DNA of 64,000 nt from Thiohalomonadales bacterium (GCA_050295955.1 JBNKQQ010000076.1:18255-82254); one strand, 5' to 3'; numbered from the stretch's first letter, positions 1 to 45,410 are shown. A program made the numbers and translations. The notes: generated by a model from the sequence alone, not told the origin.

Positions 1-1
1 G

Positions 2-568
2 GCCCATGCGGGTGCCACGCCGATGGAGATGCGTCAGGATGCCTTTCAGGGAGTGGCTGAATTTTCCACCGAGCTGCCGCGGATTATTGAAGAGCATGGC
101 TCACCTCGCAGTGTCGCCACTATCGGTCGGGTTGAATTACAACCGGGTGCGGCCAACGTGGTACCTGGTAAGGCGATATTTTCCTTGGATGTTAGGGATA
201 TCGATAACAACACGCTACAGGCGCTCAGGGAGGCGATGCGCTGTGCCCTTTCAGCTATTGCTCGCCGTCGCCAACTGATGTTTGATTTTGAGGTGTTGAG
301 CGAGATCCCTGCCGTGAAATGCGATGGTGGCATTGCCCATACTATTGAAGAGATGGCCAACAGGCTTGGCATTAACCATACCCGTATGGCCAGTGGTGCT
401 GCCCACGATACCCAGATCATGGCCTCTATTGCCCGTACCGGGCTGATATTTGTACCCAGCAAGGGTGGACGCAGCCACTCCCCGGCGGAGTGGAGCGATT
501 GGCAGGATATCGTGAATGGTGCCAATGTGCTGCTGAATACCCTCTATGACATGGCGAATCAATCATGA
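2..568 (+). CDS. C-terminal fragment of an M20/M25/M40 amidohydrolase (N-carbamoyl-L-amino-acid hydrolase or allantoate amidohydrolase-like); the 5' end lies upstream of the window.
   Basis: The ORF runs open to the left edge. The 181-aa C-terminal region has the dimerisation/lid domain typical of carbamoylases (..ARRRQL..FDFEVLSEIPAV..ASGAAHDTQ..). It ends 4 nt into the next gene, which suggests an operon. Confidence 0.65.
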   Translation, partial: AHAGATPMEMRQDAFQGVAEFSTELPRIIEEHGSPRSVATIGRVELQPGAANVVPGKAIFSLDVRDIDNNTLQALREAMRCALSAIARRRQLMFDFEVLSEIPAVKCDGGIAHTIEEMANRLGINHTRMASGAAHDTQIMASIARTGLIFVPSKGGRSHSPAEWSDWQDIVNGANVLLNTLYDMANQS

Positions 569-1296
569 CCGATGAAGTAACCCCCTATACCGATATCGAT
601 CCGTTAGCGGATACCTACCGTGAATTGGTGGTGGATACCCCCGCGCTCTACAACTCCTTGCGTGAGCACCATACCGCGCTACTTTGTATCGATCTGCAAT
701 ATCTGGATGCGGCTCCCGGCTATGGTGTGTTTGCTGATGCCGACAGGTCTGGCGTGCCGAAAGAGGCTCAGGAGTACTACTTTAACCGTCTGGATGAGTT
801 AGTACTGCCCAATGTTCGGGCGCTACAAAATGCTTTTCGGGAGCAGGGATTAGAGGTAATCCATACCCGTATCCAGTCACTGACGCAAGATGGGCGGGAT
901 CGGGGGCCGGGTCACAAACGTCTGAAATTGCATGCGGCACCCGGTTCCAAAGAGGCAGAGTTCCTGGAGCAGGTGGCGCCGGTAGGGGATGAGATTGTCA
1001 TCAACAAGACGGCCAGCGGCGTGTTTAATGCCACCAATATTGAATACATCTTGCGCAACCTGGAGATCACCGGCTTGGTGATCGTGGGGGTTTACAGTAA
1101 TGAGTGTGTCTCTACCGCCATTCGCGATGCCTGTGATTTGGGTTTTCATGTCACCTTGATTAGCGATGCAACGGCGACGGTCACCCCCGAGCTGCAAAAT
1201 GCCACTATCACCACTATGACGGATCGCTATGCCCGAGTGATGAATACCAATGAGATGTTGGATGAGCTGGTGCGCTACATGGATGAGCAGGGGTAA
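565..1296 (+). CDS. Isochorismatase-family cysteine hydrolase (RutB / N-carbamoylsarcosine amidase-like).
   Basis: 243 aa. The start overlaps the upstream stop (ATGA). It shows the isochorismatase fold signature (LLCIDLQ.. Asp, ..INKTASG.. Lys, ..VYSNECVSTAIRDA.. Cys nucleophile). Confidence 0.7.
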   Translation: MTDEVTPYTDIDPLADTYRELVVDTPALYNSLREHHTALLCIDLQYLDAAPGYGVFADADRSGVPKEAQEYYFNRLDELVLPNVRALQNAFREQGLEVIHTRIQSLTQDGRDRGPGHKRLKLHAAPGSKEAEFLEQVAPVGDEIVINKTASGVFNATNIEYILRNLEITGLVIVGVYSNECVSTAIRDACDLGFHVTLISDATATVTPELQNATITTMTDRYARVMNTNEMLDELVRYMDEQG

Positions 1297-1301
1297 GGAC
1301 A

Positions 1302-2735
1302 ATGAGCGGCAATAGCGAAGCGGTGTTACCTCTGGATATTGCCTGGCTGATTATTGGCCTGTTCAGCTTGTTGTGGATAGCGTTGGGCTGGTGGCTTGGT
1401 AGGCGTGCTGCTGGATTAGATGGTTATATGTTGGCGGGGCGCAATGTGGGCTTGGCATTGGCATCAGCTACGGCGATGGCGACCTGGGTGACCAGTAATA
1501 CCACCATGGCGGCACCCCAGTTGGCATTACAGCTGGGGATTTGGGGCATGGTGGGTTATGCCCTGGGTTCAGTGGGTTTACTGCTGTTTGCTCCCATGGC
1601 ACAACGGATTCGCCAGTTGATGCCCAACGGCTATACCAGTGGTGACTTTATCCGCTTGCGCTATGGCAAGGGTGCATGGCGTATCTTTTTAGTGATTTCG
1701 TTTGCCTACGGCATTGGCTGGCTGATCAGTTTGGGGATGGCCGGTGGTGTGTTGATCAATGCGCTAAGTGGTATCGATTACCGTATTGGTATGACGGTGA
1801 TTCTGACCATCTGTGTGCTCTATACATTATTGGGTGGGTTACGGGCCGTCATTGGAACCGACTTCATCCAGACCATTCTGATTCTTATCGGCATTATTAT
1901 CCTGGCTTGGTTTGCCATTACTGATATTGGCTTTGAGGCTATCCATCAGGGGGTGGCGGAGCAGCGTCCTGAGTTGCTCAATCTTCTGTTGCCAGCCGCA
2001 ATCATGTTTCTGTTTAACAATCTCTTCTTTGGCGTGGGTGAGATCTTCCACTCCAACGTGTGGTGGAGCCGCGCCTTTGCCTTTGGCCCGGGCGTGGGGT
2101 TCCGTGCTTACCTGATTGCTGGGTTGCTGTGGATGCCTATCCCTATAGTGGCAGGTTTTGTTGCCCTGGCGACGCCAGCTCTGGGAATGAATATCCCTGC
2201 TGCGGACATGGTAGGGCCGGTGGTGGCGGCTGAGCTGCTGGGGTTGGGGGGAGCGATTATCGTCTTTATTGTGGTGTTCGCCGCATTGGCCTCTAGTCTG
2301 GACTCATTGCTGGCGGCGACCTCTGATTTGATTACTCAGGATATTTATAAAGGGCATCTACGCCCTCAGGCCAGTGAGCAGGAGCTAGCCCGGGTGGCTA
2401 AGGGCATTATTTTGCTATTGGGTTTTGTCACATGGCTGCTTTGTTTACCTCGCCTGACTACCTTGGGCGAGCTGCTGTTCTTCATGGGAGCGTTTGTCGC
2501 TAGCACTATCTGGCCCATTATCGCCGGTCTCTATTGGAAGTATGCCAATCCCACTGGGGCAGCATTGGCGATGTTGCTGGGTACTGCGGCTGGACTGACC
2601 GCCTATTTCGAGATTGGCTTCTATGTGGCAGCGTTAGTTTCTACTGCTGTCTCCATGGCGATTGTGCTGCTCTCCAGCTGGTTACGTCCGGCTACTTTTG
2701 AGTGGCATACCCTAAATGAGGAGAGAGGCGTCTGA
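1302..2735 (+). CDS. Sodium:solute symporter (SSS) family transporter.
   Basis: 477 aa with about 13 predicted hydrophobic helices and the SSS motifs (YMLAGRNVG, ATAMATWVTS). Confidence 0.8.
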   Translation: MSGNSEAVLPLDIAWLIIGLFSLLWIALGWWLGRRAAGLDGYMLAGRNVGLALASATAMATWVTSNTTMAAPQLALQLGIWGMVGYALGSVGLLLFAPMAQRIRQLMPNGYTSGDFIRLRYGKGAWRIFLVISFAYGIGWLISLGMAGGVLINALSGIDYRIGMTVILTICVLYTLLGGLRAVIGTDFIQTILILIGIIILAWFAITDIGFEAIHQGVAEQRPELLNLLLPAAIMFLFNNLFFGVGEIFHSNVWWSRAFAFGPGVGFRAYLIAGLLWMPIPIVAGFVALATPALGMNIPAADMVGPVVAAELLGLGGAIIVFIVVFAALASSLDSLLAATSDLITQDIYKGHLRPQASEQELARVAKGIILLLGFVTWLLCLPRLTTLGELLFFMGAFVASTIWPIIAGLYWKYANPTGAALAMLLGTAAGLTAYFEIGFYVAALVSTAVSMAIVLLSSWLRPATFEWHTLNEERGV

Positions 2736-2857
2736 TGATGATCTCTGCCACAGCTTTAAGCCTGCTAGTGGGTGCTGCACTGACGGTTACGGTGCTGGCC
2801 CCCTTCATTTTACTCATCCTATTTATTCGAGATTGGAAAAAAGGAGAAATCTGGTGA
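2735..2857 (+). CDS. Unannotated 40-aa single-helix membrane micro-protein (MMISATALSLLVGAALTVTVLAPFILLILFIRDWKKGEIW).
   Basis: It is not in the ORF track because it is under 60 aa. Its ATG overlaps the transporter stop (TGATG). A GAGGAGAGAGG SD-like run lies upstream. Its TGA overlaps the GTG start of the next gene (GTGA), which points to translational coupling. It has a hydrophobic core and a basic C-terminus. Confidence 0.4.
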   Translation: MMISATALSLLVGAALTVTVLAPFILLILFIRDWKKGEIW

Positions 2858-3936
2858 ACCCAATTCACCCTATGCTGCGTGAACCGGTTAAACCTGCCAA
2901 ATGGCGCGACGGTATTGAGCGTCCACAAAAGCTTCAGGATACGGTCATTGAAGATCCTAGACCACTAGTGGATCTAGCCGGTTGCCCCATTGTTTCAGCG
3001 CGGCAATTTGATCGCTATAAAATTGCTCAATTGTGCCGTTTTGCTGCGCTCTATGAGACCACTCCCAACCTGTTTCCGCTGCCACTAAAAGGCAAAATTC
3101 TGATTAATGCTTTTTATGAACCCAGTACCCGTACCCGACTCTCTTTTGAAAGTGCCTGGCACCGCTTGGGGGGGGATGCCATGTCCATTACTGATCCGGC
3201 GACGACCGGTATTGCTAAGGGTGAATCCCTCTCCGATGTGGCGGAGATGTTTAACCACTATGGAGATGTGGTGGTACTGCGGGATACCCATGAGGAGGCA
3301 ATCTACGAGATGCTGCCATCGCTACGTATTCCCATCATCAATGCAGGGAACGGTATCGATGAGCATCCCACCCAGGCACTGACCGACCTGTATGCGATCT
3401 TTAAGTGGCGTCCCCAGTTGATTGAGGAGAAGGTAGCAGAAGAGGATAAAGTTCGTATCGGTATCATTGGTGTGCCCAATCGTATGCGTACGGTGCGCTC
3501 GCTGCTGATTTTGCTCTCTATGTTTTCCCAGGCAATTCACGAGGTGGTGATTATCTCCGATAAAGAGCACCCCTACGATGAGGGGCAGTTGGAGGAGCTT
3601 CACAAGGAAGGGCTGACAGTGCGCACCAGTCACTCCCTGAATAAAGAGTTACCAGAGCTGGATGTGGTCTATATCAACTCTATCGCTTGGGTAGGGGATA
3701 GCTTTGAGCGCTTGGGTGAAGACCTGCGTCTTAGTGCTACTTCTCCCCTGAAAAAAAGCGCCATCATTATGCATCCCTTGGCGCGAGGACCGGAGCTTTC
3801 CACTGACCTGGATGATACCGACCACAATTGGTATTTCGCCCAGGCCAGGGGGGCGGTCTACGTTCGTATGGCGCTTCTGACCAGCTTGGTACAGCGCGTT
3901 CCCCAGGTTCTGGATACCCCGGATGAGCTGGTGTAA
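2854..3936 (+). CDS. Aspartate/ornithine carbamoyltransferase-family protein. It is an ATCase-like paralogue, with noncanonical substrate-binding residues and an N-terminal extension.
   Basis: It has the STRTR carbamoyl-phosphate motif, HPTQ, and an HPLARGPEL (HPLPR-like) motif. Its C-terminus, MHPLARGPELSTDLDDTDHNWYFAQARGAVYVRMALL, closely parallels PyrB. I chose the GTG at 2854, which has an AAGGAG SD 6 nt upstream, over the track's ATG at 2716; that ATG would overlap the transporter by 20 nt and has no SD. Confidence 0.75.
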   Translation: MNPIHPMLREPVKPAKWRDGIERPQKLQDTVIEDPRPLVDLAGCPIVSARQFDRYKIAQLCRFAALYETTPNLFPLPLKGKILINAFYEPSTRTRLSFESAWHRLGGDAMSITDPATTGIAKGESLSDVAEMFNHYGDVVVLRDTHEEAIYEMLPSLRIPIINAGNGIDEHPTQALTDLYAIFKWRPQLIEEKVAEEDKVRIGIIGVPNRMRTVRSLLILLSMFSQAIHEVVIISDKEHPYDEGQLEELHKEGLTVRTSHSLNKELPELDVVYINSIAWVGDSFERLGEDLRLSATSPLKKSAIIMHPLARGPELSTDLDDTDHNWYFAQARGAVYVRMALLTSLVQRVPQVLDTPDELV

Positions 3937-4001
3937 TCCATTCAATATCTCTGCCCGGTGTTCTTCCACCGGGCTATCTTAAGCAACAAAGGTACAACAC
4001 T

Positions 4002-6017
4002 ATGTGTGGAATCGCAGGCGTTATACACGCCGACCCGGCACGCCCGGTCGACCCTCAAACCCTGGTCAACATGGCCGCCATCCAATATCACCGTGGCCCC
4101 GATGGTTTCGGAATCAAGACCATGAATGACCGTGGCATTGGTTTTGCCCATGCTCGTCTTTCCATTATTGATCTGAATGAGCAACGGGGCAGGCAGCCCT
4201 TTATGCATCACGATGGTAATTTGATGCTGACGCAAAATGGTGAGCTCTATGATTACAAACGTATCCGTGCGGATCTCACTACGCGAGGAGCTCGCTTCCA
4301 AAGTAAGAGTGACTCGGAACTGGTGCTACACCTCTATGAACACTATGGCCTGGAAGAGACCCTGAAAAACTGCCGAGGTGAGTTTGCCTTTGCCCTCTAC
4401 GATAAGCAGAACGATCGCCTGATGTTGGTGCGGGATCGCTTCGGCATCAAGCCCCTCTACTGGACCCAGCATAACGGCACCCTGGTATTTGGCTCTGAGC
4501 TGAAGGTGTTGTTTGCCCATCCCGAGGTGCCCCGCCAATTTAGTGCTGAAGGGGTTTATCACCAATTGATGCAGACCATTGTACCGGGTACTACCGCTTT
4601 TGACGGGGTGTACCAGGTGAAGCCGGGCCATGTGATGATCATCCAGCGGGATGGTAAAGGAGGCTTTGAGATCGAAGATCGCAAATATTGGGATATGGAT
4701 TTTCCCAAGCTGGGGGAGCGGGACGAATCCCAGCCTGAAGAGCACTACATTGAAGCGGTACGGGAGAAGTTGTTGGAGGCGGTACAACTGCGCCTAGAAG
4801 CGGATGTGCCGGTGGCCTGCTATCTCTCTGGCGGGATCGACTCTTGTTCTACGTTGGGGATGGCAGCGGCCAGTCAGCAATCTTTGGTGAAGGCATTCAC
4901 TATCGGCTTTGATGATGCGGACTATGACGAGAGTGTGATTGCTGCTGAGATGGCCGATAGTGTGGGGGCGGACCAGGATATTATGCGTCTGGATGCCAGC
5001 CACCTCTACGATAATTTAGAAGAGACCCTCTGGCACACCGAGCGCACCATCTACAACACCCTTGGGGTGGCCAAGTTATTGATGAGTCGTCATGTGAATA
5101 AAGCGGGCTATAAAGTGGTAGTTACTGGCGAAGGTTCTGATGAGCTATTCAGCGGCTATCCCGCCTTTCGTCGAGACATGTTCCTGCATGGTCTGGATAC
5201 CCTGGCTCCCGAAGAGCGTAAGGAGTGGGAAGCGCTGCTGGCAGAGAGTAATAAGCTCTTTAAAGGTGCCATGTTGGCAGAGAACGAATTGCATGACGAG
5301 GCTCTGGATGCGCTAATCGGTTTTACCCCTAGCTGTCTGCAACCCTGGTTGGCGGCGGCTGAACATGTGCCAGGCTTACTGGCCCCAGAATTACGTAAGC
5401 AGACCGAAGGCTACCAACCCGGCAAGGCCATTGCAGATGCCCTGGATGGTGAGATGCTCAAAGAGCGTCACCCACTGGATAAGGCGCAATACGTCTGGAT
5501 CAAAACCATGTTAGAGGGACAGATTCTCACTTGGGGGGGCGACCGGGTGGATATGGCAAACTCCATGGAGGCGCGTCCGCCGTTCCTGGATCATCACCTT
5601 GCCGAGCTGGCGACCCAACTGCCACCTTCATTGCGTATCAAAGGCCGCACTGAAAAGTATGTACTGCGGGAAGCGATGAAAGGACTACTCCCCAAAACCC
5701 TCTATGAGCGGGAGAAGTTTGCCTTCATGGCACCACCTGCCCATACCGATCCTAAGAAATGGCAGGCAATGAAGGCTCTGGCGGAACGTTACCTAAATGA
5801 AGAGACCATTGAACAAGCCGGTGTATTGGATGGTGCCGGTGTTGCTGCAATTTTTGATTTATATGAAGCGGAGGATACCTCTGCCTCTACCAAGGTGCAG
5901 TTGGATGCTGTTATCAACCATATGATTGGTATCCAGGTATTGCACAACCACTTTATTGCCCAGGATGTACCTGCGTTGGCACAACAACGAGCAGAAGAGT
6001 TGGAGTGGGCCGCTTAG
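4002..6017 (+). CDS. Asparagine synthetase (glutamine-hydrolysing) family amidotransferase with an extended C-terminus.
   Basis: The N-terminal MCGIAG.. carries the Ntn Cys2 nucleophile. The synthetase domain has the PP-loop CYLSGGIDSC. It is 671 aa, against about 554 aa for E. coli AsnB. Confidence 0.8.
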   Translation: MCGIAGVIHADPARPVDPQTLVNMAAIQYHRGPDGFGIKTMNDRGIGFAHARLSIIDLNEQRGRQPFMHHDGNLMLTQNGELYDYKRIRADLTTRGARFQSKSDSELVLHLYEHYGLEETLKNCRGEFAFALYDKQNDRLMLVRDRFGIKPLYWTQHNGTLVFGSELKVLFAHPEVPRQFSAEGVYHQLMQTIVPGTTAFDGVYQVKPGHVMIIQRDGKGGFEIEDRKYWDMDFPKLGERDESQPEEHYIEAVREKLLEAVQLRLEADVPVACYLSGGIDSCSTLGMAAASQQSLVKAFTIGFDDADYDESVIAAEMADSVGADQDIMRLDASHLYDNLEETLWHTERTIYNTLGVAKLLMSRHVNKAGYKVVVTGEGSDELFSGYPAFRRDMFLHGLDTLAPEERKEWEALLAESNKLFKGAMLAENELHDEALDALIGFTPSCLQPWLAAAEHVPGLLAPELRKQTEGYQPGKAIADALDGEMLKERHPLDKAQYVWIKTMLEGQILTWGGDRVDMANSMEARPPFLDHHLAELATQLPPSLRIKGRTEKYVLREAMKGLLPKTLYEREKFAFMAPPAHTDPKKWQAMKALAERYLNEETIEQAGVLDGAGVAAIFDLYEAEDTSASTKVQLDAVINHMIGIQVLHNHFIAQDVPALAQQRAEELEWAA

Positions 6018-6042
6018 CCATTTTATTATTTCAATAATAAGG

Positions 6043-6092
6043 GCGCTAAAATCTATAGGTTTTAGCGCCTTTATATTTTCTTTTTATTGCGC
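6043..6092 (+). terminator. Rho-independent terminator after the asparagine-synthetase-like gene.
   Basis: GGGCGCTAAAA-TCTATAGG-TTTTAGCGCC hairpin, followed by TTTATATTTTCTTTTT. Confidence 0.7.
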
Positions 6093-6181: not shown

Positions 6182-7648
6182 ATGAAGTTTGTGGCTAAAC
6201 CCCTCTATGGTCTTGTCGTTTCTATAGCGATCTCTTCGGTATTTGGCAGCGCTGCCATGGCATCTGATGACCCTCCATCGGGACAACAATCGCTTGAAGA
6301 GGTGATTCCCATTACCATGGCCAATTTGCGAGGCCAGAAGGCGTTGTATGAAGAGGGGTGGTTTGTTATTAGCTCTACTGAGCGTGCCTTTCAATATGCC
6401 CAAGAAAAGTTCATCACCTCCTCCGGGCAGGCGCTGCAGCAGATGCAGGCCTCTCTGGGTGAACGCTCTGAACAATTACCTGATGCCTTGGCTGAAGGGA
6501 TTAATGAAGGGGTTGAATCGGGTAAGTCTTTCTATCAGAAGGGTGGTCAGCGTAGCGATGATATTTACCGGGGCACTCATGAGGTTGCTCAGCAGCAGTT
6601 GAATTATGCCAAGCAGGGTTTTGTGAAAGCGTGGGACCGTTTTGTGTTGGGGAATATTACCCTGGTCAAGCGTACAGAAGAGGATCGCCAAGCGTTGATG
6701 GCGATTCCGGGTGATTACTATCACACCCTCAAATCCGATTTCAGTAATCTCTATCAATTAAGCCAAACTGCCGCGGATGCTATTACGCCAGAGATTGAGC
6801 TCAATTGGTCCGCTTCTCTGCAGCAGGCTCAGGCCAGTTTTGCTGAAGAGTATGAGGCATCGGGTGAGGCCGCCAATTCGTTGAGTGGCCTGGGGGATAT
6901 TCTCGCAGGGTATGCGAAGGCCGCTTATCATGCCATTTTCAAACCCAGTGGGCAGGCTATCGCCAAAGGCGCTACGGCGACGGTGGGTCTGGCGGGACAG
7001 GCACTGTTTCTGCCAACGGCCTCCCTGTTTGTGGTTACCGGACGTACAGTGCAGTCTGCCGGCTTATCCCTCTACTACACCACTAAAACTGGCTACAAGC
7101 TGGTCTCTCCAACGTTAGAGGGCGGTATGCTTGGCGGTGTCTCTTTATTGGCGGGGGCAACAGCACCTGTTACCTATGGCGCTGGCATGTCGGCAGGGAT
7201 GTTAAATCAGGTGGCTGTGACCACTTTATCGCCGGTAGTGGGTGGGGCAACGGCTGTTGGGAGTACCTTGGCAGAGACGGCTGAGTATGCCGGTTTGGTG
7301 ACCTATGATCTTGCCAAGGGGGGCAGCAAGGTTGTGATTAACCAAATCTCCAGTGGCGTTGTCTTGGGTTATAACGCCTTGACAGCACTGCCTACCCAAG
7401 CATTGTTGAGTACGGCGAATGGGGCCTTTTTTCTGGTTTACGATGGCCCCAGGTTGATGGTTGCCAAGGTGAGTGGTCGCTTGTCGGATGAGGGTGAGGC
7501 ACAGACTATCGATAGCCTGCCCGTCGGTACCGTGGTGGATATGAAGCAGTTGGAGCAAGTACCTGAGTTGATGATTGAGCCTGTTTCCGATGATCCCGCG
7601 CTGATTGAACAGGTACTGGAAAACATGGCAGAGGATCTTCGCCAATGA
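6182..7648 (+). CDS. Secreted hypothetical protein. The C-terminal half is Gly/Ala-rich (glycine-zipper-like), followed by a conserved tail domain.
   Basis: Signal peptide MKFVAKPLYGLVVSIAISSVFGSAAMA. Its central segments (GGATAVGS, GAGMSAGM) and C-terminal domain are paralogous to the next gene. Confidence 0.55.
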   Translation: MKFVAKPLYGLVVSIAISSVFGSAAMASDDPPSGQQSLEEVIPITMANLRGQKALYEEGWFVISSTERAFQYAQEKFITSSGQALQQMQASLGERSEQLPDALAEGINEGVESGKSFYQKGGQRSDDIYRGTHEVAQQQLNYAKQGFVKAWDRFVLGNITLVKRTEEDRQALMAIPGDYYHTLKSDFSNLYQLSQTAADAITPEIELNWSASLQQAQASFAEEYEASGEAANSLSGLGDILAGYAKAAYHAIFKPSGQAIAKGATATVGLAGQALFLPTASLFVVTGRTVQSAGLSLYYTTKTGYKLVSPTLEGGMLGGVSLLAGATAPVTYGAGMSAGMLNQVAVTTLSPVVGGATAVGSTLAETAEYAGLVTYDLAKGGSKVVINQISSGVVLGYNALTALPTQALLSTANGAFFLVYDGPRLMVAKVSGRLSDEGEAQTIDSLPVGTVVDMKQLEQVPELMIEPVSDDPALIEQVLENMAEDLRQ

Positions 7649-9480
7649 GAAAGCCGATTACGATTTTGCTTGTTGCAACTGGCCTTGTTCTGCAATTGAG
7701 TGCTTGTTCTAATGCGCCTAAGCAAGAGGATCCCTTAAAGAATACTAAGCAGCTGGTCAAACGTGGCCACGGTGATCTCTATGACAATGGCGCATTCCAG
7801 GTTCCCAATACCAAGATCTCACTGATACCTCCAGGCCCATCGGCCATGGAGTTCGCTAAAGAGCTGGCAGGTGTCCGTGCCCGTCAATCCTTTGAACAGT
7901 CCCTGGAAAATGCCCGTGATGCAGTCTATGTGGTAGCAGATGGGACCCGTAAAAGTTTTACCCTGGCATCCGAGCTACATGACGATACCAATGAGGTGGC
8001 AAATTACATTACAGCGCATTCACGGCCAAATAGTAAGTTATTAATATACAAAGCTTATCCCAAAACCAAAGAGATTATTGGCGAGAGTTGGCAGCTGGCT
8101 GACCGGGTTGCACATCGCATGGAGGAGGGGGCGAGCGGAATGATTGCAGGGGCTGCGGCAGCAGGAGAAGGAATGCGTGAAGCGGCCAAAGCCACTGAAG
8201 GGACATTGGGTAAGTCGTGGGAATTGGCTAAATCATTCTCCAGTGATACCAATGCGTTGGTCGGAGAGGGTTTTGCGACGGCCGGCGAGGCCTTTGTGCA
8301 AGGTTACGCAGCACTGCCCCGACGCCTATCCGAGCGCTGGGGAGCACAGAGTCAAAGTCCCACACTGGATAAATTTGCGGCCAATTATGAGGCTTCACTC
8401 GCCTATCGGGAATCTCGCTCCGAGTTTTATGGCGAGATGGTGAGCGCCTCCTTGAGTGATTATAGCGATGGGGTTTCCGACTCCTTTGCCAATGCGGCGG
8501 CGGCCTTTGATCAAGCGGGTGAAACCGGCTTCAGTCTTGCTACCTTGAAGGCGGCAAGGTGGGTGCTGCAGGGTATCTTTTGGGATGGTTTGATCAAGCC
8601 GGTGGGTGGTGCCACGGTTGGCTCGGTAGGCTATCTCACCGTTAATACAGTCACCTTCCCAGTGATGCTGGTAGCCAGTGAGAGTGTGCCGGTGGCTGAA
8701 GTGGCTGTTGAAGTGGCTTGGAACTCTGCGGCGACAGCCTATGAGGTGGTGGCGCCGACGGCTTCTGCTGCCGTGGCTTCATTGTTTAGTCTTACAGGGA
8801 TGGCCATTGGCCAAACAGCAGCGGGTGGCGCCATTGCGGGTGGTGCTATCGCAGAAGGGAGCGGCTATCTGGTGAAAGGTGCCGCGACGGTGGTTGAGAC
8901 AGGAGGCAAAGTAGCTGGCAAGAGTGTCAGTTACATTGGCGTCCCTCTTACCACAGCCGGCATCAAGATCGCCGGTAGTGCAGCGGGTGTTGTGGTGGGC
9001 GGTGCTCAGGCAGGTGCTGGCGGGGCACTGTTTATTGCCGGAGAGGGCGGGGCGCTTGCTACTCAGGCGGCAGGTAATCTCGCTGCGGGCACTACCTTGG
9101 CTGTCGGTACCGTAGCCTCGACTGTAGCCGGTGCTGGGCTGGGCGTTTATGAACTCTCCAAAGCCGTGGTAGTCCCGACCGGTTACACCTTGGGGAGTGG
9201 CATTGTGCTGGGCTACGGCACCACCTCTCAGTTGGCTGCTCACTCCATCCTAGCGGTTAGCGATGCTGCTTATTTGGTGCTCTCACTTGAAGGTCCTCGA
9301 TGGGTGGTTTATGCGGTCAAAGGTGACCTGAATAAGGGTGATGATTTGGCTGTAGGCACTATGCTGGATCTAGAGCAGATGCAGACGTCAGGTGAGACCT
9401 TCTATGAATTGCCGGTCTCTGATGAGGAGCTAAGCGGGCTACTCGAAGCATTGCCGGAAGAGCTGCCAGAAGCACCTTAA
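7645..9480 (+). CDS. Lipoprotein paralogue of the upstream gene; Gly/Ala-rich, with an acidic C-terminal tail.
   Basis: Lipobox LQLSAC at residues 16-21. The start overlaps the upstream stop (ATGA). A long G/A-rich glycine-zipper-like tract (AGGAIAGGAIAEGSG...GGAQAGAGGALFIAGEGG) sits before a C-terminal domain alignable to that of the 6182-7648 protein. Confidence 0.55.
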   Translation: MRKPITILLVATGLVLQLSACSNAPKQEDPLKNTKQLVKRGHGDLYDNGAFQVPNTKISLIPPGPSAMEFAKELAGVRARQSFEQSLENARDAVYVVADGTRKSFTLASELHDDTNEVANYITAHSRPNSKLLIYKAYPKTKEIIGESWQLADRVAHRMEEGASGMIAGAAAAGEGMREAAKATEGTLGKSWELAKSFSSDTNALVGEGFATAGEAFVQGYAALPRRLSERWGAQSQSPTLDKFAANYEASLAYRESRSEFYGEMVSASLSDYSDGVSDSFANAAAAFDQAGETGFSLATLKAARWVLQGIFWDGLIKPVGGATVGSVGYLTVNTVTFPVMLVASESVPVAEVAVEVAWNSAATAYEVVAPTASAAVASLFSLTGMAIGQTAAGGAIAGGAIAEGSGYLVKGAATVVETGGKVAGKSVSYIGVPLTTAGIKIAGSAAGVVVGGAQAGAGGALFIAGEGGALATQAAGNLAAGTTLAVGTVASTVAGAGLGVYELSKAVVVPTGYTLGSGIVLGYGTTSQLAAHSILAVSDAAYLVLSLEGPRWVVYAVKGDLNKGDDLAVGTMLDLEQMQTSGETFYELPVSDEELSGLLEALPEELPEAP

Positions 9481-14638: not shown

Positions 14639-15202
14639 CTAAATCCAATAGGTTGGATAGTGCCGTTTGGGGTTACTGGATAGATTATTCACTAGTAGTG
14701 CGATGATCAATAAGATAATAGCGCCAGATGCAACGGGTGTTAATACAAACCAATATCCAACTTGAGTAATTTGTGGGCCACCTATTACTGCAATCAGTGC
14801 AGTGGCACCACCTGGCGGGTGTAGTGTGCGGCTATAGTGCATGGCGAGCACAGAGAGGGACACAGCAAGTGCGCAAGCTAAGCCAATATCCAATGTGATG
14901 AGCTTGGCACAAGTGACACCGACTATGGCAGAGATAAGATGGCCACCGACTAAATTACGCGGTTGGGAAAAGTCAGCCATTGGCGCACCATAGATCAGTA
15001 CGGCAGAGGCGCCAAAGGAGCCAATCAGGAAGAGACTATTTATGAGGGAACTCTGTGCAAGCAGGGTAATGGCATAAATACCCAGAAAAGCACCTAGCCA
15101 AGACCACATCAGCTTACTGAGTGGCTTACGAGGAGGGCAGCGACCACTTCCTTTTAATCGTGAAAAATAGGGCTTGAGCATAGAGTATGTATCCATGGAC
15201 AA
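14639..15202 (-). CDS. HPP-family integral membrane protein.
   Basis: Four to five predicted hydrophobic helices and a conserved HPPGGAT motif. Confidence 0.55.
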   Translation of the reverse strand: MSMDTYSMLKPYFSRLKGSGRCPPRKPLSKLMWSWLGAFLGIYAITLLAQSSLINSLFLIGSFGASAVLIYGAPMADFSQPRNLVGGHLISAIVGVTCAKLITLDIGLACALAVSLSVLAMHYSRTLHPPGGATALIAVIGGPQITQVGYWFVLTPVASGAIILLIIALLVNNLSSNPKRHYPTYWI

Positions 15203-15315
15203 GTTGAAGAAATTATTGCACCACTATAGTGCAAAAGAAGATAAATCACCATACTGGTGTGAATGATGAATTGTCTGACTGAAGAAGAGAGCTGGCTTCG
15301 AAATAACGACAAGGT

Positions 15316-16701
15316 ATGATGAGTCAAAAGCCTTTAATTAAGGAGAGAGCGTTGACGACACATTTTGATTTAATTGCGATTGGTGGCGGTAGTGGTGGTC
15401 TTTCCGTGGCTGAGCGAGCAGCCAGCTACGGTGCGAAGACCGCGGTGATAGAGATGAACAAGCTGGGGGGCACCTGTGTCAATGTGGGTTGTGTTCCTAA
15501 AAAGGTGATGTGGTATGCCGCAGATGTGGCGCATCATTTGGATAATGCCGCTGATTACGGTTTTTCCATAGAGCGTAAAGGGTTCAATTGGGCCAAGTTG
15601 GTGGAGAACCGCGAGGGCTATATCCAAGGCATATTGAACTGGTATGGCGGTTATTTGGGCGATTCTAATGTGACCCATCTGCAAGGGGCAGCCAAGTTTG
15701 TTGATGCCCACACTCTTGAAGTGGACGGGGAGCGTTACACGGCAGATCACATTGTTATCTCAACTGGCGGTCGCCCCACCATTCCTGGTGTTCAGGGGGC
15801 AGATCTTGGTGTTACCTCCGATGGCTTTTTTGCCCTTGAGCAGCAGCCTAAGCGAGTGGCTATTGTGGGGGCGGGTTATATTGCGGTTGAGCTGGCGGGT
15901 TTGATGAATGCATTGGGATCCGAGGTTTCACTGCTGCTGCGTCGTGAGCATTTTCTGGGGAGCTTTGATGCTATGCTGCGGGAGACGTTGATGGAGCAGA
16001 TGGTGGATGACGGTGTGAATATTATTCCGCGTTTCTCTACTGAGAAGGTCACCAAAGAGGCGGATGGTAGTCTTACTTTACATAGTTCAGAGGGCGTTAC
16101 AGTCGGCAATTTGGACTGTCTTGTCTGGGCAATTGGTCGCAGTCCCAATACTGACAATATCAATATCGAAGCCAGTGGCGTGGAGACTCAGCCCGATGGC
16201 ATGATTCCCACTGATCTGTTCCAAAATACTAATGTACCAGGTGTTTATGCGATTGGGGATATTACTGGTCGAGCACAGCTCACTCCTGTCGCGATTGCCG
16301 CTGGTCGGCGTCTTGCGGATCGACTGTTTAACAATATGCCTGAGCGCCGTCTGGAGTATGAGAATATTCCCACGGTCATGTTTAGCCACCCACCTATCGG
16401 TACGGTTGGCCTGACAGAGGAGCAGGCTCGGGCAGAGCATGGTGATGCAGTGAAGGTTTATCAAACCCGCTTTACCCCCATGTCCCATGCGTTTACCAAA
16501 CACAAGGTGGCAACTGCCATGAAACTGATTTGTGTCGGTGTGCAGGAAAAAGTGGTGGGTATTCATATGATTGGTCCTGGCTGTGATGAGATGCTGCAAG
16601 GCTTTGCCGTGGCACTAAAGATGGGGGCTACAAAGACCGATCTGGATAACACTGTGGCGATACATCCCTGTAGCGCAGAAGAGTTGGTAACCATGAGGTA
16701 A
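15316..16701 (+). CDS. gor: Glutathione-disulfide reductase.
   Basis: [13 protein letters not shown] redox-active disulfide motif. FAD and NADPH Rossmann motifs plus a dimerisation domain. 461 aa. Confidence 0.9.
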
Positions 16702-19771: not shown

Positions 19772-21310
19772 CTAACGTTTTTTAGCCGCTTTTTTCTTGG
19801 TAGTTGCCCGCTTTTTAGTCGCGGATTTTTTTGCGGAGGCTTTCTTTTTCACGGAAGCCTTCTTTTTACTTGCCGCTTTCTTTCTGGTCGCACTCTTATT
19901 TTTAATGGCAGACTTTTTAATATAGGCCTTCTTCTTAGTTGCGGCTTTTTTCTTGGTCACCGCTTTCTTAGTCGCCGACTTCTTCTTAGTGGCGGCTTTT
20001 TTCTTGGTCACCGCTTTCTTCGTTGCCGACTTTTTCTTAGTGGCGGCCTTTTTCTTGGTCACCGCTTTCTTCGTTGCCGACTTTTTCTTAGTGGCGGCCT
20101 TTTTCTTGGTCACCGCTTTCTTAGTCGCGGACTTCTTCTTAGTGGCGGCTTTTTTCTTGGTCACCGCTTTCTTAGTCGCGGACTTCTTTTTAGTGGCGGC
20201 TTTTTTCTTGGTCACCGCTTTCTTAGTCGCGGACTTCTTTTTAGTGGCGGCTTTTTTCTTGGTCACCGCTTTCTTAGTCGCGGACTTCTTCTTAGTGGCG
20301 GCTTTTTTCTTGGTCACCGCTTTCTTAGTCGCGGACTTCTTTTTAGTGGCGGCTTTTTTCTTGGTCACCGTTTTCTTCGTTGCCGACTTCTTCTTAGTGG
20401 CGGCTTTTTTCTTGGTTGCCGCTTTCTTCGTTGCCGACTTCTTCTTAGTGGCCGCCTTTTTCTTAGTTGCCGCTTTCTTAGTCACGGACTTCTTCTTAGT
20501 GGCGGCTTTCTTTTTAGTCGCCGCTTTTTTCTTAACGGCGCGCTTCTCGACAGGCTCTTCCTCAGTAACCGTTTCTTCAACCTGCGCTGCAGGTTCCTCA
20601 GTCGTTGTTTCTGACTCTAGAGGTAGAGGCAGGGATTGAGGCTCATTTTCTGGCTCTTCTTTTCCCAGGGAGTCAATGACATGACAAACACGGTTGAAGA
20701 TATCTTCAATCTCACCAATACCTTCGATGCGTTGCAGAATTGCTTTGTCACTGTAGTAGTTAATTAGTGGGCTGGTTTGCTCTTCGTATACCTTAAGGCG
20801 GCTGCCGATGGTCTCTTCGTTGTCATCAGAGCGGTGTTGCAGTTCTCCACCACACTTATCACAAACACCCTCTTTCTCTGTGGGGGAGAAGAAGACATTG
20901 TAAACTTGGCCGCATGCCTTACAGGTACGGCGGCCGGTAATACGTTTGAGCAGTACATCAAAATCGACGTTAATCAGGATTGCACCATCAAGTGGTTGAC
21001 CAACCTTGCTTAGCAGTTGGTCTAGTGCTTCTGCCTGAGGAATATTGCGGGGGAAACCATCCAGAATATAGCCATTGTGGGTATCAGGTTGTGCGAGACG
21101 TTCCTCGATCATGCCTAGCACCACCGAGTCAGGAACCAGCTGTCCGGCATCCATGAACTCTTTGGCTTGTTTTCCGAGTTCGGTGCCGCTGGATACGGCA
21201 GCACGGAGTAGGTCGCCAGTGGAGATTTGCGGAATATTGTATTTATCGATTAGTTTCTGAGCTTGGGTACCTTTACCTGAACCCGGCGCACCTAACAGTA
21301 CGATTCTCAT
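19772..21310 (-). CDS. adk: Adenylate kinase with a Cys4 zinc LID, fused in frame to an acidic linker and a long Lys/Ala/Thr-rich histone-H1/AlgP-like repeat tail.
   Basis: [17 protein letters not shown]-loop and CKACG...CDKCGG zinc LID. I chose the start at ATG 21310, which has a GGGAGG SD 10 nt upstream. After about 222 aa of Adk there is no stop. Instead come about 40 acidic residues ([24 protein letters not shown]), then roughly a dozen repeats of [17 protein letters not shown]. Confidence 0.85.
19790..20545. repeat. 51-bp tandem-repeat array inside the adk 3' region, encoding the 17-aa K/A/T repeats.
   Basis: Near-identical units of ...TTAGTCGCGGACTTCTTTTTAGTGGCGGCTTTTTTCTTGGTCACCGCTTTC... 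repeat head to tail across about 600 bp. Copies at both edges are degenerate. Confidence 0.85.
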
Positions 21311-21454
21311 AGCGCAGTTGCCTCCCTCGGCAATATTTATCATTTTGATTATAGGAAATGTAGCGGTTAGCTATTTGAACCCCAGATTATGTCAATGAGC
21401 ACTGGTAAATTACAAGTTTTGATGGGATTAATTGAGGAAAAAAGTGCTTTTTAA

Positions 21455-26123: not shown

Positions 26124-26146
26124 GGTTAATAACGAAGGTGACAGCG

Positions 26147-27241: not shown

Positions 27242-27290
27242 TAATACCAAACCACAGAATTTTTAAAATTTAACCGAGAGGATTGCTAGC

Positions 27291-27683
27291 ATGAGCAATG
27301 CACCCAATGAACTGTATTATGCCCAAAGTCACGAATGGAGTCGTATCGAAGATGATGGCACTGTTACGGTGGGAATTACCGATCACGCCCAGGAGCTACT
27401 GGGGGATATTGTCTTTATTGAACTGCCTGAGATGGATAGCGCATTGGAGGCGGAGCAGGATTGTGCAGTCATCGAGTCGGTAAAAGCGGCATCGGATATC
27501 TATAGCCCAGTGGCGGGCACCATCATCGCCATCAATGAAGATCTGGTCGATGCACCAGAAACTGTAAATAGTGACCCTTACGGTGATGGCTGGATTTTTA
27601 AGTTACAACCTTCCAATCTGGATGATGTAAAGGCACTGATGAGTGGCGATGATTATAGCGCCATGGTTGCTGAAGAAGAGTAA
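27291..27683 (+). CDS. gcvH: Glycine cleavage system H protein.
   Basis: 130 aa, with the lipoyl-lysine motif ESVKAASD. Confidence 0.9.
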
Positions 27684-27701
27684 TTAGCAGGTAACGCCTG
27701 A

Positions 27702-29066: not shown

Positions 29067-29068
29067 CC

Positions 29069-45239: not shown

Positions 45240-45410
45240 GGGTGACTCCTGTATCCCAGTTTGGGTGAGAATGAAAGGATGAGAGTAGTGTTGGATGGAA
45301 TGGCGGAGGATTCAACGTGGAAAAAAATATGACTTATCTATTTTATAGAATAGAGTGCCTCCTTAATTGCTAAAAAACCTACTACACTAAAAATAAAAAG
45401 ATAGGACTTT

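What the first reader, a model, noticed from the sequence alone, without database searches (positions are those of the whole stretch)
1..6017. Candidate novel carbamoyl/amide metabolic operon built around a noncanonical ATCase paralogue
Six co-directional genes overlap or are tightly spaced. They encode an M20 carbamoylase-type amidohydrolase, an isochorismatase-family amidohydrolase, an SSS transporter, a 40-aa membrane peptide, an aspartate-carbamoyltransferase-like protein and an AsnB-like amidotransferase. The operon ends in a strong terminator. The transcarbamylase has the STRTR carbamoyl-phosphate loop, HPTQ, and a PyrB-like C-terminus (HPLARGPEL...WYFAQARGAVYVRMALL). Where PyrB has the aspartate-binding Arg229/Gln231 (LYMTRVQKER), this protein reads VVYINSIAWVGDSFER. 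It also has an N-terminal extension of about 45 aa, and there is no pyrI. This suggests a transcarbamylase with a different acceptor, comparable to YgeW, putrescine or oxamate carbamoyltransferases. The acceptor is probably a ureido or N-carbamoyl compound, imported and degraded. Alternatively an amidated product could be built with the AsnB homologue. I cannot assign this gene combination to a described pathway.
Basis: partly seen in the sequence, partly recalled or inferred. Interest (0 to 1): 0.75.

Follow-up and report, generated by a model that had tools for sequence, protein, structure and literature searches.

The report
Likely carbamoyl-glutamine-amide osmolyte gene cluster
A real, widely conserved operon pairs a second "aspartate carbamoyltransferase" that has lost its aspartate-binding residues with an asparagine-synthetase-like amidotransferase; it most likely makes, recycles and transports an N-carbamoyl amino acid amide, probably the salt-protection solute N-carbamoyl-glutamine amide, whose genes I found described nowhere in the papers I could search.

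Summary
Window 1-6074 carries the 3' end of an M20 L-carbamoylase, an isochorismatase-family cysteine hydrolase, an SSS transporter, a conserved 40-aa membrane micro-protein, an ATCase paralogue ("PyrB2") and an AsnB-like amidotransferase. They are overlapping or tightly spaced and end in a 17-bp-stem terminator. The operon starts outside the window, with a 129-aa membrane protein.

In 136 family members the carbamoyl-phosphate site, Lys84 and Arg167 never vary, but Arg229 is Ser/Ala and Gln231 is Ala. A canonical pyrR-pyrB-pyrC' operon lies about 7 kb upstream on the same contig.

PyrB2 is directly followed by the AsnB-like gene in 72 of 74 loci with enough downstream sequence, across Gammaproteobacteria, Myxococcota, marine Synechococcus and Prochlorococcus. 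The accessory genes vary: isochorismatase in gammaproteobacteria, DUF1028 in cyanobacteria. In four gammaproteobacterial genomes, three of them Ectothiorhodospiraceae, an MscS channel sits immediately or one gene downstream; in three Ectothiorhodospiraceae a sucrose synthase is adjacent.

[quoted passage not shown] My best reading is CGA-type osmolyte synthesis with turnover and uptake (confidence about 0.5).

Doré et al. 2023 listed the cyanobacterial cluster (asnB/pyrB2/pydC) with only a speculative pyrimidine role. The product is not demonstrated.

The parts
1..568 (+). 3' part (188 codons) of a 414-aa M20 N-carbamoyl-L-amino-acid amidohydrolase. The gene starts 676 nt upstream of the window.
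   Evidence: Pfam Peptidase_M20 and M20_dimer. The full-length protein from contig L081 scores 514 bits on NF006771 (cut-off 399) and 382 bits on ErtE, the N-carbamyl-L-glutamate amidohydrolase (cut-off 520). The nearest solved structure is the L-carbamoylase 3n5f.
565..1296 (+). Isochorismatase-family cysteine hydrolase (243 aa), a putative amidase acting on a ureido or amide compound.
   Evidence: Pfam Isochorismatase, 112 bits. The nearest solved relatives are the cysteine hydrolase 6xix (which I recall, from memory, to be a triuret hydrolase), biuret hydrolase 6xjm, N-carbamoylsarcosine amidase 1nba and RutB. The Cys of 'SNECVST' aligns with the Cys of 6xix that is Ser in the variant entry 6xj4, which I take to be the nucleophile (inference). 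It is conserved next to the M20 gene in gammaproteobacterial loci.
1302..2735 (+). Sodium:solute symporter family transporter (477 aa).
   Evidence: Pfam SSF, 115.8 bits. It scores below the cut-offs of PutP, PanF and ActP. It lies upstream of PyrB2 in 38 of 64 loci with enough upstream sequence, including Synechococcus.
2735..2857 (+). Conserved 40-aa single-pass membrane micro-protein, a probable accessory subunit of the SSS transporter.
   Evidence: It is 45-50% identical at the same position in gammaproteobacterial and Planctomycetota loci, with weaker matches right after the SSS gene in Synechococcus. The C-terminal motif [RK][DE]W[KR]xGx[LIV]W-stop is shared. It was not detected in the loci without the SSS gene that I searched or whose called genes I saw, except Thiorhodospira.
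2854..3936 (+). PyrB2: an ATCase-fold carbamoyltransferase paralogue (360 aa, GTG start). The carbamoyl-phosphate site is intact and the aspartate side-chain site is replaced.
   Evidence: OTCace_N and OTCace domains. It is below all ATCase equivalog cut-offs. Arg229 is Ser/Ala and Gln231 is Ala across 136 members, while S52, T53, R54, T55, K84, R105, H134, Q137, R167, P266 and L267 never vary. The AF2 model has pLDDT 82, and the top Foldseek hits are all ATCases with TM about 0.85.
4002..6017 (+). AsnB-like glutamine-dependent amidotransferase (671 aa).
   Evidence: GATase_6/7 and Asn_synthase domains. TIGR01536 scores 430 bits (cut-off 267), but AsnB PRK09431 scores 276 (below 499) and the NAGGN amidotransferase TIGR03104 scores 312 (below 570). 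The N-terminal Cys (MCGI) and the SGGIDS and EGSDE motifs are present. The alignment to E. coli AsnB (1ct9) breaks into three pieces, with an extra segment of about 125 aa. It lies directly downstream of PyrB2 in 72 of 74 loci.
6037..6074 (+). Intrinsic terminator that closes the operon.
   Evidence: A 17-bp stem, a 4-nt loop and a T-rich tail, 20 nt after the AsnB-like stop codon.

Best explanation
The locus makes, recycles and re-imports an N-carbamoyl amino acid amide. [quoted passage not shown]

Proposed steps, all inferred:
1. PyrB2 transfers the carbamoyl group of carbamoyl phosphate to the alpha-amino group of L-glutamine (or L-glutamate). It holds the alpha-carboxylate with the retained Arg167 and Lys84. 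The side chain sits in a pocket remodelled by Arg229 to Ser/Ala and Gln231 to Ala.
2. The AsnB-like enzyme adenylates the free alpha-carboxylate and amidates it with glutamine-derived ammonia. AsnO does the same for N-acetylglutaminylglutamine amide.
3. The isochorismatase-type cysteine hydrolase (DUF1028 in cyanobacteria) and the M20 L-carbamoylase take the solute apart again, to glutamine/glutamate, NH3 and CO2, when it is no longer needed or after it is taken up.
4. The SSS transporter with its 40-aa subunit recaptures or scavenges the solute.
5. In some genomes a dedicated MscS channel releases it on osmotic down-shock, and a MarR-type regulator controls the operon.

Shown: gene content, residue pattern, synteny and taxonomic distribution. 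Inferred: the substrate, the product and the physiological role.
For: (a) PyrB2 keeps every carbamoyl-phosphate ligand plus Lys84 and Arg167, and lacks Arg229 and Gln231, in 136 of 136 members. A canonical pyrR-pyrB-pyrC' operon sits on the same contig.

(b) PyrB2 and the AsnB-like gene are adjacent in 72 of 74 loci with room, spanning Gammaproteobacteria, Myxococcota, Synechococcus and Prochlorococcus. The amidotransferase keeps its glutaminase Cys1 and its ATP motifs.

(c) The accessory hydrolases are replaced by non-homologous enzymes of similar expected chemistry. Gammaproteobacteria have M20 plus isochorismatase; cyanobacteria have M20 plus the DUF1028 Ntn hydrolase. The relatives of both gammaproteobacterial hydrolases act on ureido compounds, and ErtE (N-carbamyl-L-glutamate amidohydrolase) is the nearest NCBIfam equivalog of the M20 enzymes.

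(d) Osmotic neighbourhood. An orthologous MscS channel (57-75% identity) lies directly after the AsnB-like gene in three genomes (a 10-nt gap in Ectothiorhodosinus) and one gene further on in Ectothiorhodospiraceae bacterium 2226. Three of the four genomes are Ectothiorhodospiraceae; the fourth is an unclassified gammaproteobacterial MAG. Sucrose synthase and a PfkB-family sugar kinase (possibly a fructokinase) flank the cluster in three Ectothiorhodospiraceae, and MarR sits upstream.

(e) CGA was described from Ectothiorhodospira marismortui, 'also known as E. mobilis' (PMC1224877). Three E. mobilis genomes encode PyrB2, and the one locus examined carries the whole cluster. The window proteins are 65% (PyrB2) and 77% (AsnB-like) identical to the E. 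mobilis ones.

[quoted passage not shown] Both have PyrB2.

(g) Named carriers are marine or halo(alkali)philic: Nitrosococcus, Thiohalobacter, Thioalkalivibrio and marine picocyanobacteria. In Prochlorococcus the cluster is noted especially in the Red Sea, which I know to be unusually saline.

(h) No paper in the searchable library assigns genes to CGA.
Against: - No experiment links any of these genes to CGA, and substrate and product are inferred from residue loss and enzyme logic only.
- Synthetic and degradative enzymes in one operon imply a futile cycle unless they are regulated after transcription.
- CGA carries 4 N per molecule, yet in Synechococcus the cluster is most frequent in N- and P-depleted waters. 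This fits nitrogen scavenging better than a bulk osmolyte.
- The osmolyte data I saw for Thioalkalivibrio, and what I recall for the other carriers, name betaine, sucrose or glucosylglycerate, not CGA.
- Some carriers are Cyanobium or Aphanothece-type MAGs of uncertain salinity.
- In Thiorhodospira the AsnB-like gene is not adjacent.
- The window locus itself has no MscS, MarR or sucrose genes next to it.
- The strain in which CGA was found was not checked at genome level; only the species was.
Confidence: 0.5

Rival explanations
1. Same chemistry, different product or role. PyrB2 and the AsnB-like enzyme make an N-carbamoyl amino acid amide other than CGA (another amino acid backbone), or the compound serves mainly as a nitrogen store or exchanged metabolite rather than as an osmolyte.
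For: The residue pattern only excludes aspartate; it does not identify glutamine. In Synechococcus the cluster is enriched in N- and P-depleted waters. The transporter and two hydrolases would release up to 4 N per molecule.
Against: No other natural N-carbamoyl amino acid amide is known to me from these taxa. The MscS and sucrose-synthase neighbourhoods and the presence in the species that produces CGA point to osmoadaptation. The similarity of the M20 enzymes to ErtE favours a Glu/Gln backbone.
Confidence: 0.17
2. Carbamoyl as a transient protecting group. PyrB2 masks the alpha-amine, the AsnB-like enzyme amidates a carboxylate, and the M20 carbamoylase then removes the carbamoyl group, giving a free amino acid amide. 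This would parallel N-acetyl or N-succinyl protection with the M20 enzymes ArgE and DapE.
For: An M20 carbamoylase accompanies the PyrB2/AsnB-like pair, on the same strand and close by, in both gammaproteobacteria and cyanobacteria. M20 deacylases end the arginine and DAP protected pathways (established knowledge).
Against: L-carbamoylases of this family normally need a free alpha-carboxylate (from my knowledge of the family), which the amidated product would lack. A second amidase (isochorismatase or DUF1028) is also conserved, which fits stepwise degradation better. The Myxococcota locus has the pair without hydrolases in the flank. No such free amide is known as a metabolite in these organisms.
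Confidence: 0.1
3. Catabolic or nitrogen-scavenging operon. An imported ureido or amide compound is hydrolysed, and PyrB2 works phosphorolytically to yield carbamoyl phosphate, as catabolic OTCase, PTCase and oxamate transcarbamylase do.
For: The transporter and two ureido-type hydrolases lead the operon. The ecological correlation is with N-poor water. Urease genes lie near the cluster in Synechococcus WH 8017, as shown by the 5' ureB sRNA in L023.
Against: The conserved core is PyrB2 plus an ATP- and glutamine-consuming amidotransferase, which has no role in a degradative route. The transporter is absent from all Prochlorococcus loci with enough upstream sequence and from the Ectothiorhodospira, Ectothiorhodosinus and Tenderia loci examined. 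No carbamate kinase is present in the clusters examined. MscS is co-located with the cluster.
Confidence: 0.13
4. Alternative or redundant pyrimidine pathway (Doré et al. 2023): PyrB2 is a second aspartate carbamoyltransferase.
For: The overall fold and the best family matches are ATCase. The name pyrB2 and the suggestion come from PMC10119275.
Against: Arg229 and Gln231, which bind the beta-carboxylate of aspartate, are replaced in every member. Scores are below all ATCase equivalog cut-offs. A canonical pyrB with pyrR and pyrC' is present in the same genome. There is no pyrC, pyrD, pyrE or pyrF linkage. The constant partner is an amidotransferase.
Confidence: 0.04

Closest known systems
Aspartate carbamoyltransferase catalytic chain (PyrB, EC 2.1.3.2)
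   Same: Same two-domain fold: Foldseek TM about 0.85 to P. abyssi, T. cruzi and E. coli ATCases, with 28-34% identity. The carbamoyl-phosphate ligands, Lys84 of the neighbouring chain and Arg167 are identical, so it probably forms a trimer.
   Different: Arg229 is Ser/Ala and Gln231 is Ala. The 240s-loop region is shortened. Family-specific invariant residues are Asn228, Ile230, Glu133, Met166 and Ala268. There is an N-terminal extension of about 40-45 aa and an insertion of about 8 aa after helix 'KWRP'. It has no PyrI or PyrC' partner. It is always paired with an AsnB-like gene. It scores below the equivalog cut-offs.
NAGGN (N-acetylglutaminylglutamine amide) synthesis: AsnO amidotransferase plus Ngg (Sagot et al. 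2010, from my own knowledge)
   Same: An osmolyte made from glutamine in which the alpha-amine is N-capped and the alpha-carboxylate is amidated by an AsnB-like, glutamine-dependent amidotransferase. As I recall, some NAGGN loci also include a peptidase gene. The product class, 'uncharged amino acid derivatives', is the one in which CGA is listed (PMC1224877).
   Different: The capping enzyme here is a carbamoyltransferase, not a GNAT/ATP-grasp protein. The amidotransferase scores 312 bits against the AsnO equivalog (cut-off 570), so it is not AsnO. The product is presumed to be a single amino acid, not a dipeptide.
[quoted passage not shown] 2023, PMC10119275)
   Same: Orthologous core: PyrB2 56-60% identical and the AsnB-like protein 55-67% identical, in the same order. 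An SSS transporter and the micro-protein lie upstream in Synechococcus.
   Different: The cyanobacterial version has the M20 gene downstream and a DUF1028 Ntn hydrolase in place of the isochorismatase-family enzyme. Prochlorococcus lacks the transporter. The published functional idea (an alternative pyrimidine pathway) is not supported by the residue analysis here.
Non-ATCase, non-OTCase transcarbamylases (putrescine TCase, YgeW, N-acetyl- and N-succinyl-ornithine TCases, ureidoglycine TCase, Dap TCases; review PMC4581275)
   Same: Precedent that paralogues in this superfamily keep the carbamoyl-phosphate site and change the second-substrate site.
   Different: Scores against the PTCase, YgeW and AOTCase models are 25-70 bits, against cut-offs of 288-500. 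This protein belongs to the ATCase branch. Ureidoglycine TCase could not be compared because no sequence was available.
Ectoine clusters that carry an mscS gene (e.g. Nitrosopumilus maritimus hyp-ectABCD-mscS, from my own knowledge)
   Same: A mechanosensitive channel gene travels with osmolyte biosynthetic genes, as it does here in four gammaproteobacterial genomes.
   Different: Unrelated biosynthetic enzymes. The window locus itself lacks the MscS gene.

Membership tests
Aspartate carbamoyltransferase (PyrB) | OTCace_N plus OTCace two-domain fold | tested here: met
   Pfam scores of 121 and 52 bits. AF2 model with Foldseek TM about 0.85 to ATCases.
Aspartate carbamoyltransferase (PyrB) | Carbamoyl-phosphate site (S52 T53 R54 T55, R105, H134, Q137, P266 L267) | tested here: met
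   These positions never vary in 136 of 136 family members. See also the alignments.
Aspartate carbamoyltransferase (PyrB) | Aspartate beta-carboxylate ligands Arg229 and Gln231 | tested here: not met
   Position 229 is Ser in 96, Ala in 39 and Thr in 1. Position 231 is Ala in 131 of 136. 'YINSIAW' aligns with 'YVTRIQK'.
Aspartate carbamoyltransferase (PyrB) | Score at or above the curated equivalog cut-off | tested here: not met
   TIGR00670: 187 against 236.95. NF002032: 181.7 against 263. NF006046: 164 against 512. The cyanobacterial orthologue behaves the same way.
Aspartate carbamoyltransferase (PyrB) | Acts as the genome's pyrimidine-pathway ATCase (linked to pyrI, pyrC or pyrR, or the sole copy) | tested here: not met
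   A canonical pyrR-pyrB (325 aa, 'MLRLQRER')-pyrC' operon lies at L081 1503..4260, about 7 kb upstream on the same contig. There is no pyrI, and the constant neighbour is the AsnB-like gene.
Ornithine, putrescine and YgeW transcarbamylases | Score at or above the curated cut-off for the family | tested here: not met
   OTCase 97.7 against 306. PTCase 69.8 against 500. YgeW 27 against 453. AOTCase 25 against 288.
Ureidoglycine transcarbamylase (Rubrobacter type) | Sequence relationship and a purine-catabolic gene context | not tested
   No reference sequence was available. The contexts seen here contain no allantoin or purine genes.
Asparagine synthetase B-type amidotransferases (class II GATase plus Asn_synthase) | N-terminal nucleophile Cys, glutaminase motifs and PP-loop SGGxDS | tested here: met
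   MCGI..., RLSIIDL, NGELYD, SDSE and LSGGIDS are present. TIGR01536 scores 430 against a cut-off of 267.
Asparagine synthetase B proper, and NAGGN amidotransferase AsnO | Equivalog-level score | tested here: not met
   PRK09431: 276 against 499. TIGR03104: 312 against 570. The alignment to 1ct9 is interrupted by an extra segment of about 125 aa.
[quoted passage not shown] | Present in a CGA-producing organism | tested here: met
   PyrB2 is encoded in three E. mobilis genomes, and the E. mobilis locus examined carries the full cluster. CGA is reported from E. marismortui, 'also known as E. mobilis' (PMC1224877). This was tested at species level, not strain level.
[quoted passage not shown] | The enzymes convert Gln (or Glu) plus carbamoyl phosphate to CGA, and the solute accumulates with salt | not testable with these tools
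   This needs enzymology, metabolite analysis and mutants.
SSS transporters with a small accessory subunit | A small membrane protein conserved next to the transporter gene | tested here: met
   The 40-aa ORF is conserved across three phyla directly after the SSS gene and shares a C-terminal motif. Physical association was not tested.

The most novel reading that the evidence does not exclude
[quoted passage not shown] PyrB2 would then be a new transcarbamylase specificity, a glutamine (or glutamate) N-alpha-carbamoyltransferase. Because the pair is common in marine Synechococcus, in part of HLII Prochlorococcus, and in Nitrosococcus, Thioalkalivibrio and other marine or halophilic lineages, CGA or a close relative would be a widespread, overlooked nitrogen-rich solute or nitrogen currency in the ocean. 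It would have its own transporter (with a new 40-aa subunit), its own recycling enzymes and, in some genomes, its own MscS release valve.
Probability: 0.35. Interest if true: 0.8.

Novelty: new variant of a known kind. Interest (0 to 1): 0.7.

Why it matters
CGA has been known as an osmolyte since 1991, but I found no genes for it in the literature I could search. This locus gives a concrete two-enzyme hypothesis that can be tested in a week of enzymology or by heterologous expression.

It would add a new acceptor specificity to the transcarbamylase superfamily. It would also correct the annotations 'aspartate carbamoyltransferase' and 'asparagine synthase' on the many database entries of these two families seen here.

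The same core is carried by globally abundant picocyanobacteria, where it was flagged as a niche-associated gene cluster of unknown role. Knowing its product therefore bears on marine nitrogen and osmolyte budgets.

The conserved 40-aa partner of the SSS transporter and the cluster-specific MscS channel are further leads.

Tried and rejected
- **Only pyrB in the genome?** Rejected. A canonical pyrR-pyrB-pyrC' operon is on the same contig. tblastn with E. coli PyrB finds only the paralogue inside the window.
- **Misalignment hiding Arg229/Gln231?** Rejected. Three independent HMMER alignments to solved ATCases and two MAFFT alignments agree.
- **The longer 406-aa ORF from ATG 2716.** Rejected. 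Homologues are 355-364 aa, an identical 360-aa protein is in the database, the GTG at 2854 has a GGAG, and the long form would overlap the conserved 40-aa gene.
- **The 40-aa ORF as a chance ORF.** Rejected.
- **Riboswitch control of the operon.** An Rfam scan of eight loci found only a Glutamine-II riboswitch upstream of Prochlorococcus pyrB2. It drives its own 33-aa ORF and is followed by a hairpin and T-run that look like a terminator, so I treat it as a separate unit.
- **Are the downstream ORFs 6182..9480 part of the cluster?** No homologues in 80 related loci and none in the bacterium 2226 locus, and they lie after the terminator, so I excluded them.
- **Literature.** Searches for genes of carbamoyl-glutamine amide, and for salt-regulated expression of these genes in Thioalkalivibrio, Nitrosococcus or Ectothiorhodospira, found nothing.
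- **SAR324 homologue (52% identity).** It has a different context (MFS-HEAT-cNMP protein, amidase, TauD-like) and was not informative.
- **Structure prediction.** It confirmed the fold but cannot name the substrate, because the tools do not expose coordinates.

Full report
**1. What is in the sequence.**

Window 1-6074 holds six co-directional genes:
- the last 188 codons of an M20 amidohydrolase (2..568)
- an isochorismatase-family protein (565..1296, 4-nt overlap)
- an SSS transporter (1302..2735)
- a 40-aa ORF (2735..2857, TGATG overlap)
- an ATCase-like gene (2854..3936)
- an AsnB-like gene (4002..6017)

The ATCase-like gene starts at a GTG in a GTGA overlap, with GGAG 7 nt upstream. A 17-bp-stem hairpin with a T-run sits at 6037..6074. 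Pfam and NCBIfam confirm every family assignment.

The exact PyrB2 protein is found on an NCBI MAG contig (GCA_050294515.1). That contig shows the M20 gene is 414 aa and is preceded by an overlapping 129-aa membrane-protein gene. The operon therefore starts about 1.07 kb before the window and has seven genes.

**2. The transcarbamylase is a paralogue and not an ATCase in the strict sense.**

HMMER alignments to solved ATCases and a MAFFT alignment of 136 family members with E. coli PyrB agree on two points.
- Retained without exception: all carbamoyl-phosphate ligands (S52, T53, R54, T55, R105, H134, Q137, P266, L267), plus Lys84 and Arg167.
- Replaced: Arg229 is Ser (96), Ala (39) or Thr (1), and Gln231 is Ala (131 of 136).

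The family also has its own invariant residues (N228, I230, E133, M166, A268), an N-terminal extension of about 40-45 aa and a small insertion.

The protein scores 187 bits on the ATCase equivalog TIGR00670 (cut-off 236.95). It scores far below the cut-offs for OTCase, PTCase, YgeW and AOTCase.

An AlphaFold model (pLDDT 82, pTM 0.84) matches only ATCases at the top of a Foldseek PDB search, with TM about 0.85.

On the same contig, about 7 kb upstream, lies the classical YqgE-RuvX-PyrR-PyrB-PyrC' block. Its 325-aa PyrB carries the canonical 'MLRLQRER'.

**3. Conservation elsewhere.**

The family is large and well conserved at 355-364 aa. Named carriers include Nitrosococcus oceani and N. watsonii, Thiohalobacter, Thiohalophilus, many Thioalkalivibrio, Ectothiorhodospira (mobilis, marina, shaposhnikovii, magna, lacustris), Ectothiorhodosinus and Thiorhodospira. 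It occurs at 56-60% identity in marine Synechococcus, Cyanobium and Prochlorococcus. Myxococcota, Planctomycetota and SAR324 MAGs also carry it.

tblastn of the window proteins against 80 loci gave these results:
- The AsnB-like gene lies directly downstream of PyrB2 in 72 of 74 loci with enough sequence.
- The SSS gene lies upstream in 38 of 64 loci. It is present in most gammaproteobacterial loci and in Synechococcus. It is absent in Prochlorococcus and Tenderia, and also in the separately examined Ectothiorhodospira and Ectothiorhodosinus loci.
- In gammaproteobacteria the M20 and isochorismatase genes precede the pair.
- In cyanobacteria an M20 gene (34-39% identical, same NCBIfam subfamily) and a DUF1028 Ntn-hydrolase gene follow it.

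N. oceani and Ectothiorhodospiraceae bacterium 2226 show essentially the window's arrangement; N. oceani has all seven genes.

The 40-aa ORF is conserved at the same position. It shares the C-terminal motif [RK][DE]W[KR]xGx[LIV]W across gammaproteobacteria, Planctomycetota and cyanobacteria. With the exception of a remnant in Thiorhodospira, it is found only where the SSS gene is present. I read it as a small subunit of the transporter.

**4. Clues to function.**

- *Core chemistry.* The invariant core is a carbamoyl-phosphate-dependent N-carbamoyltransferase plus a glutamine-hydrolysing, ATP-dependent carboxylate amidotransferase. The first keeps the alpha-carboxylate ligands but not the aspartate side-chain ligands. 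The second keeps Cys1, the glutaminase motifs, the PP-loop and EGSDE. Its alignment to E. coli AsnB is interrupted by an extra segment of about 125 aa. The expected product is an N-carbamoyl amino acid amide.
- *Accessory hydrolases.* They belong to families whose characterised members act on ureido compounds. The M20 enzyme is nearest to the L-carbamoylase 3n5f, and its nearest NCBIfam equivalog is ErtE, the N-carbamyl-L-glutamate amidohydrolase. The isochorismatase-type enzyme is nearest to the cysteine hydrolase 6xix (a triuret hydrolase, as I recall it), biuret hydrolase, N-carbamoylsarcosine amidase and RutB. The Cys I take to be its nucleophile is conserved. That cyanobacteria use an unrelated Ntn hydrolase (DUF1028) in the same cluster argues that an amidase step is needed next to the carbamoylase.
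- *Neighbourhood.* In E. mobilis, E. shaposhnikovii and Ectothiorhodosinus the cluster sits between a sucrose synthase and a PfkB-family sugar kinase. An orthologous MscS channel (57-75% identical) follows the AsnB-like gene directly in Ectothiorhodosinus (10-nt gap), E. shaposhnikovii and an unclassified gammaproteobacterial MAG (L003). In bacterium 2226 it follows one gene later. A MarR regulator precedes the cluster in three genomes.
[quoted passage not shown] It is a compatible solute described from Ectothiorhodospira marismortui, 'also known as E. mobilis' (PMC1224877). E. mobilis carries the cluster, and the window's PyrB2 and AsnB-like proteins are 65% and 77% identical to the E. mobilis ones.
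- *Genomes lacking other osmolyte genes.* Imhoff et al. [quoted passage not shown] They named CGA as a candidate solute. Both genomes have PyrB2.
- *Ecology.* In Prochlorococcus the cluster is found in about one fifth of HLII genomes, 'notably in the Red Sea' (PMC10119275), which I know to be unusually saline.

**5. Best explanation and its weak points.**

I propose that the locus synthesises a CGA-type solute (PyrB2, then the AsnB-like enzyme), takes it up (SSS plus micro-protein) and degrades it (amidase, then L-carbamoylase). The design is analogous to NAGGN synthesis by Ngg and AsnO.

All substrate and product assignments are inferences. The points against:
- Synthesis and degradation genes share one operon.
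- CGA is nitrogen-rich, while in Synechococcus the cluster is most frequent in N- and P-depleted water.
- CGA has not been reported from most carriers.
- Only species-level, not strain-level, presence in the CGA producer was checked.
- The window locus itself lacks MscS, MarR and sucrose genes.

I put about 0.5 on this reading. Of the rest, about 0.17 goes to the same chemistry with a different product or role, 0.10 to a protecting-group route, 0.13 to a catabolic operon and 0.04 to a pyrimidine role.

**6. Comparison with what is known.**

The cluster has been listed before, in cyanobacteria only, as the eCAG asnB/pyrB2/pydC plus an 'Ntn aminohydrolase'. The authors suggested an alternative pyrimidine pathway. 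The residue analysis here argues against that suggestion.

No paper in the searchable library links genes to CGA. The transcarbamylase review PMC4581275 says that several independent clades of the family have unknown function, and none of the taxa I searched for is mentioned in it.

I therefore rate the finding as a new variant of a known kind: a new acceptor specificity in a known superfamily, inside an osmolyte-type locus whose logic resembles NAGGN.

**7. Verdict.**

Interest is 0.7. The family is widespread, mis-annotated and experimentally untouched, and it offers a direct test of a 35-year-old orphan pathway.

Noticed in passing
window 19772..21343 (- strand): An adenylate kinase (ADK domain at residues 16-201) is fused to a C-terminal tail of about 290 aa. 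The tail has an acidic linker followed by about 25 tandem KKAATKKK(S/A)ATKKAVT-type repeats, like histone H1 or AlgP. This is unusual for Adk, which is normally about 215 aa.
   Followed up: partly
window 6182..7648 and 7645..9480 (+ strand): Two overlapping large ORFs (488 and 611 aa) lie just after the operon terminator. They have no Pfam or NCBIfam match. Their N-termini look like signal peptides (by eye). Their C-terminal parts are Gly/Ala-rich and hydrophobic, and the last ~137 aa are paralogous (34% identity). No homologues were found in 80 related loci.
   Followed up: partly
L055 (Prochlorococcus sp. MIT 9314) 7224..7285, with ORF 7304..7405: A Glutamine-II riboswitch (69 bits, gathering score 33) lies about 640 bp upstream of pyrB2 on the same strand. 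A 33-aa 'downstream peptide' ORF (YRG repeats) and a hairpin with a T-run follow it. It looks like a separate unit, but it sits beside a glutamine-consuming cluster.
   Followed up: partly
L081 6082..6471 (just upstream of the window); homologues in L003, L004, L006, L007, L010, L083 and L087: A conserved membrane protein of 129-159 aa has hydrophobic N- and C-terminal segments (read by eye) and a weak FN3-like or purple-acid-phosphatase-N match. Its gene overlaps the start of the M20 gene and is the first gene of the gammaproteobacterial operon. Its role is unknown.
   Followed up: partly
L001 (Candidatus Tenderia sp. MAG) 8061..8066: The PyrB2 orthologue (80% identical) has an in-frame stop at codon 22 (GI*RP, where others have GIERP). 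This is either an assembly error or a recent pseudogene. This locus also lacks the SSS gene and the micro-protein gene.
   Followed up: no
L085 (Thiorhodospira sibirica) 7885..9080: The 40-aa micro-protein gene and pyrB2 remain together, but the SSS, hydrolase and AsnB-like genes are not adjacent (a patatin gene is upstream and an acyltransferase gene downstream). It may be a decayed or rearranged cluster.
   Followed up: no
L023 (Synechococcus sp. WH 8017) 15144..15430: A 5' ureB sRNA (151.7 bits) lies about 2 kb beyond the end of the cluster. This suggests (urease genes themselves were not checked) that the cluster lies beside the urease genes in a nitrogen-related region.
   Followed up: no
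window 25134..30517 and 43410..46931: The rest of the window looks like ordinary chromosome. It holds the glycine-cleavage genes (T and a split P protein), a radical-SAM protein, hemB, a PfkB kinase, an alpha-amylase-family protein, a glutamate-synthase-domain protein, several PAS/GGDEF/EAL proteins and a CheB-CheR fusion signalling protein.
   Followed up: no
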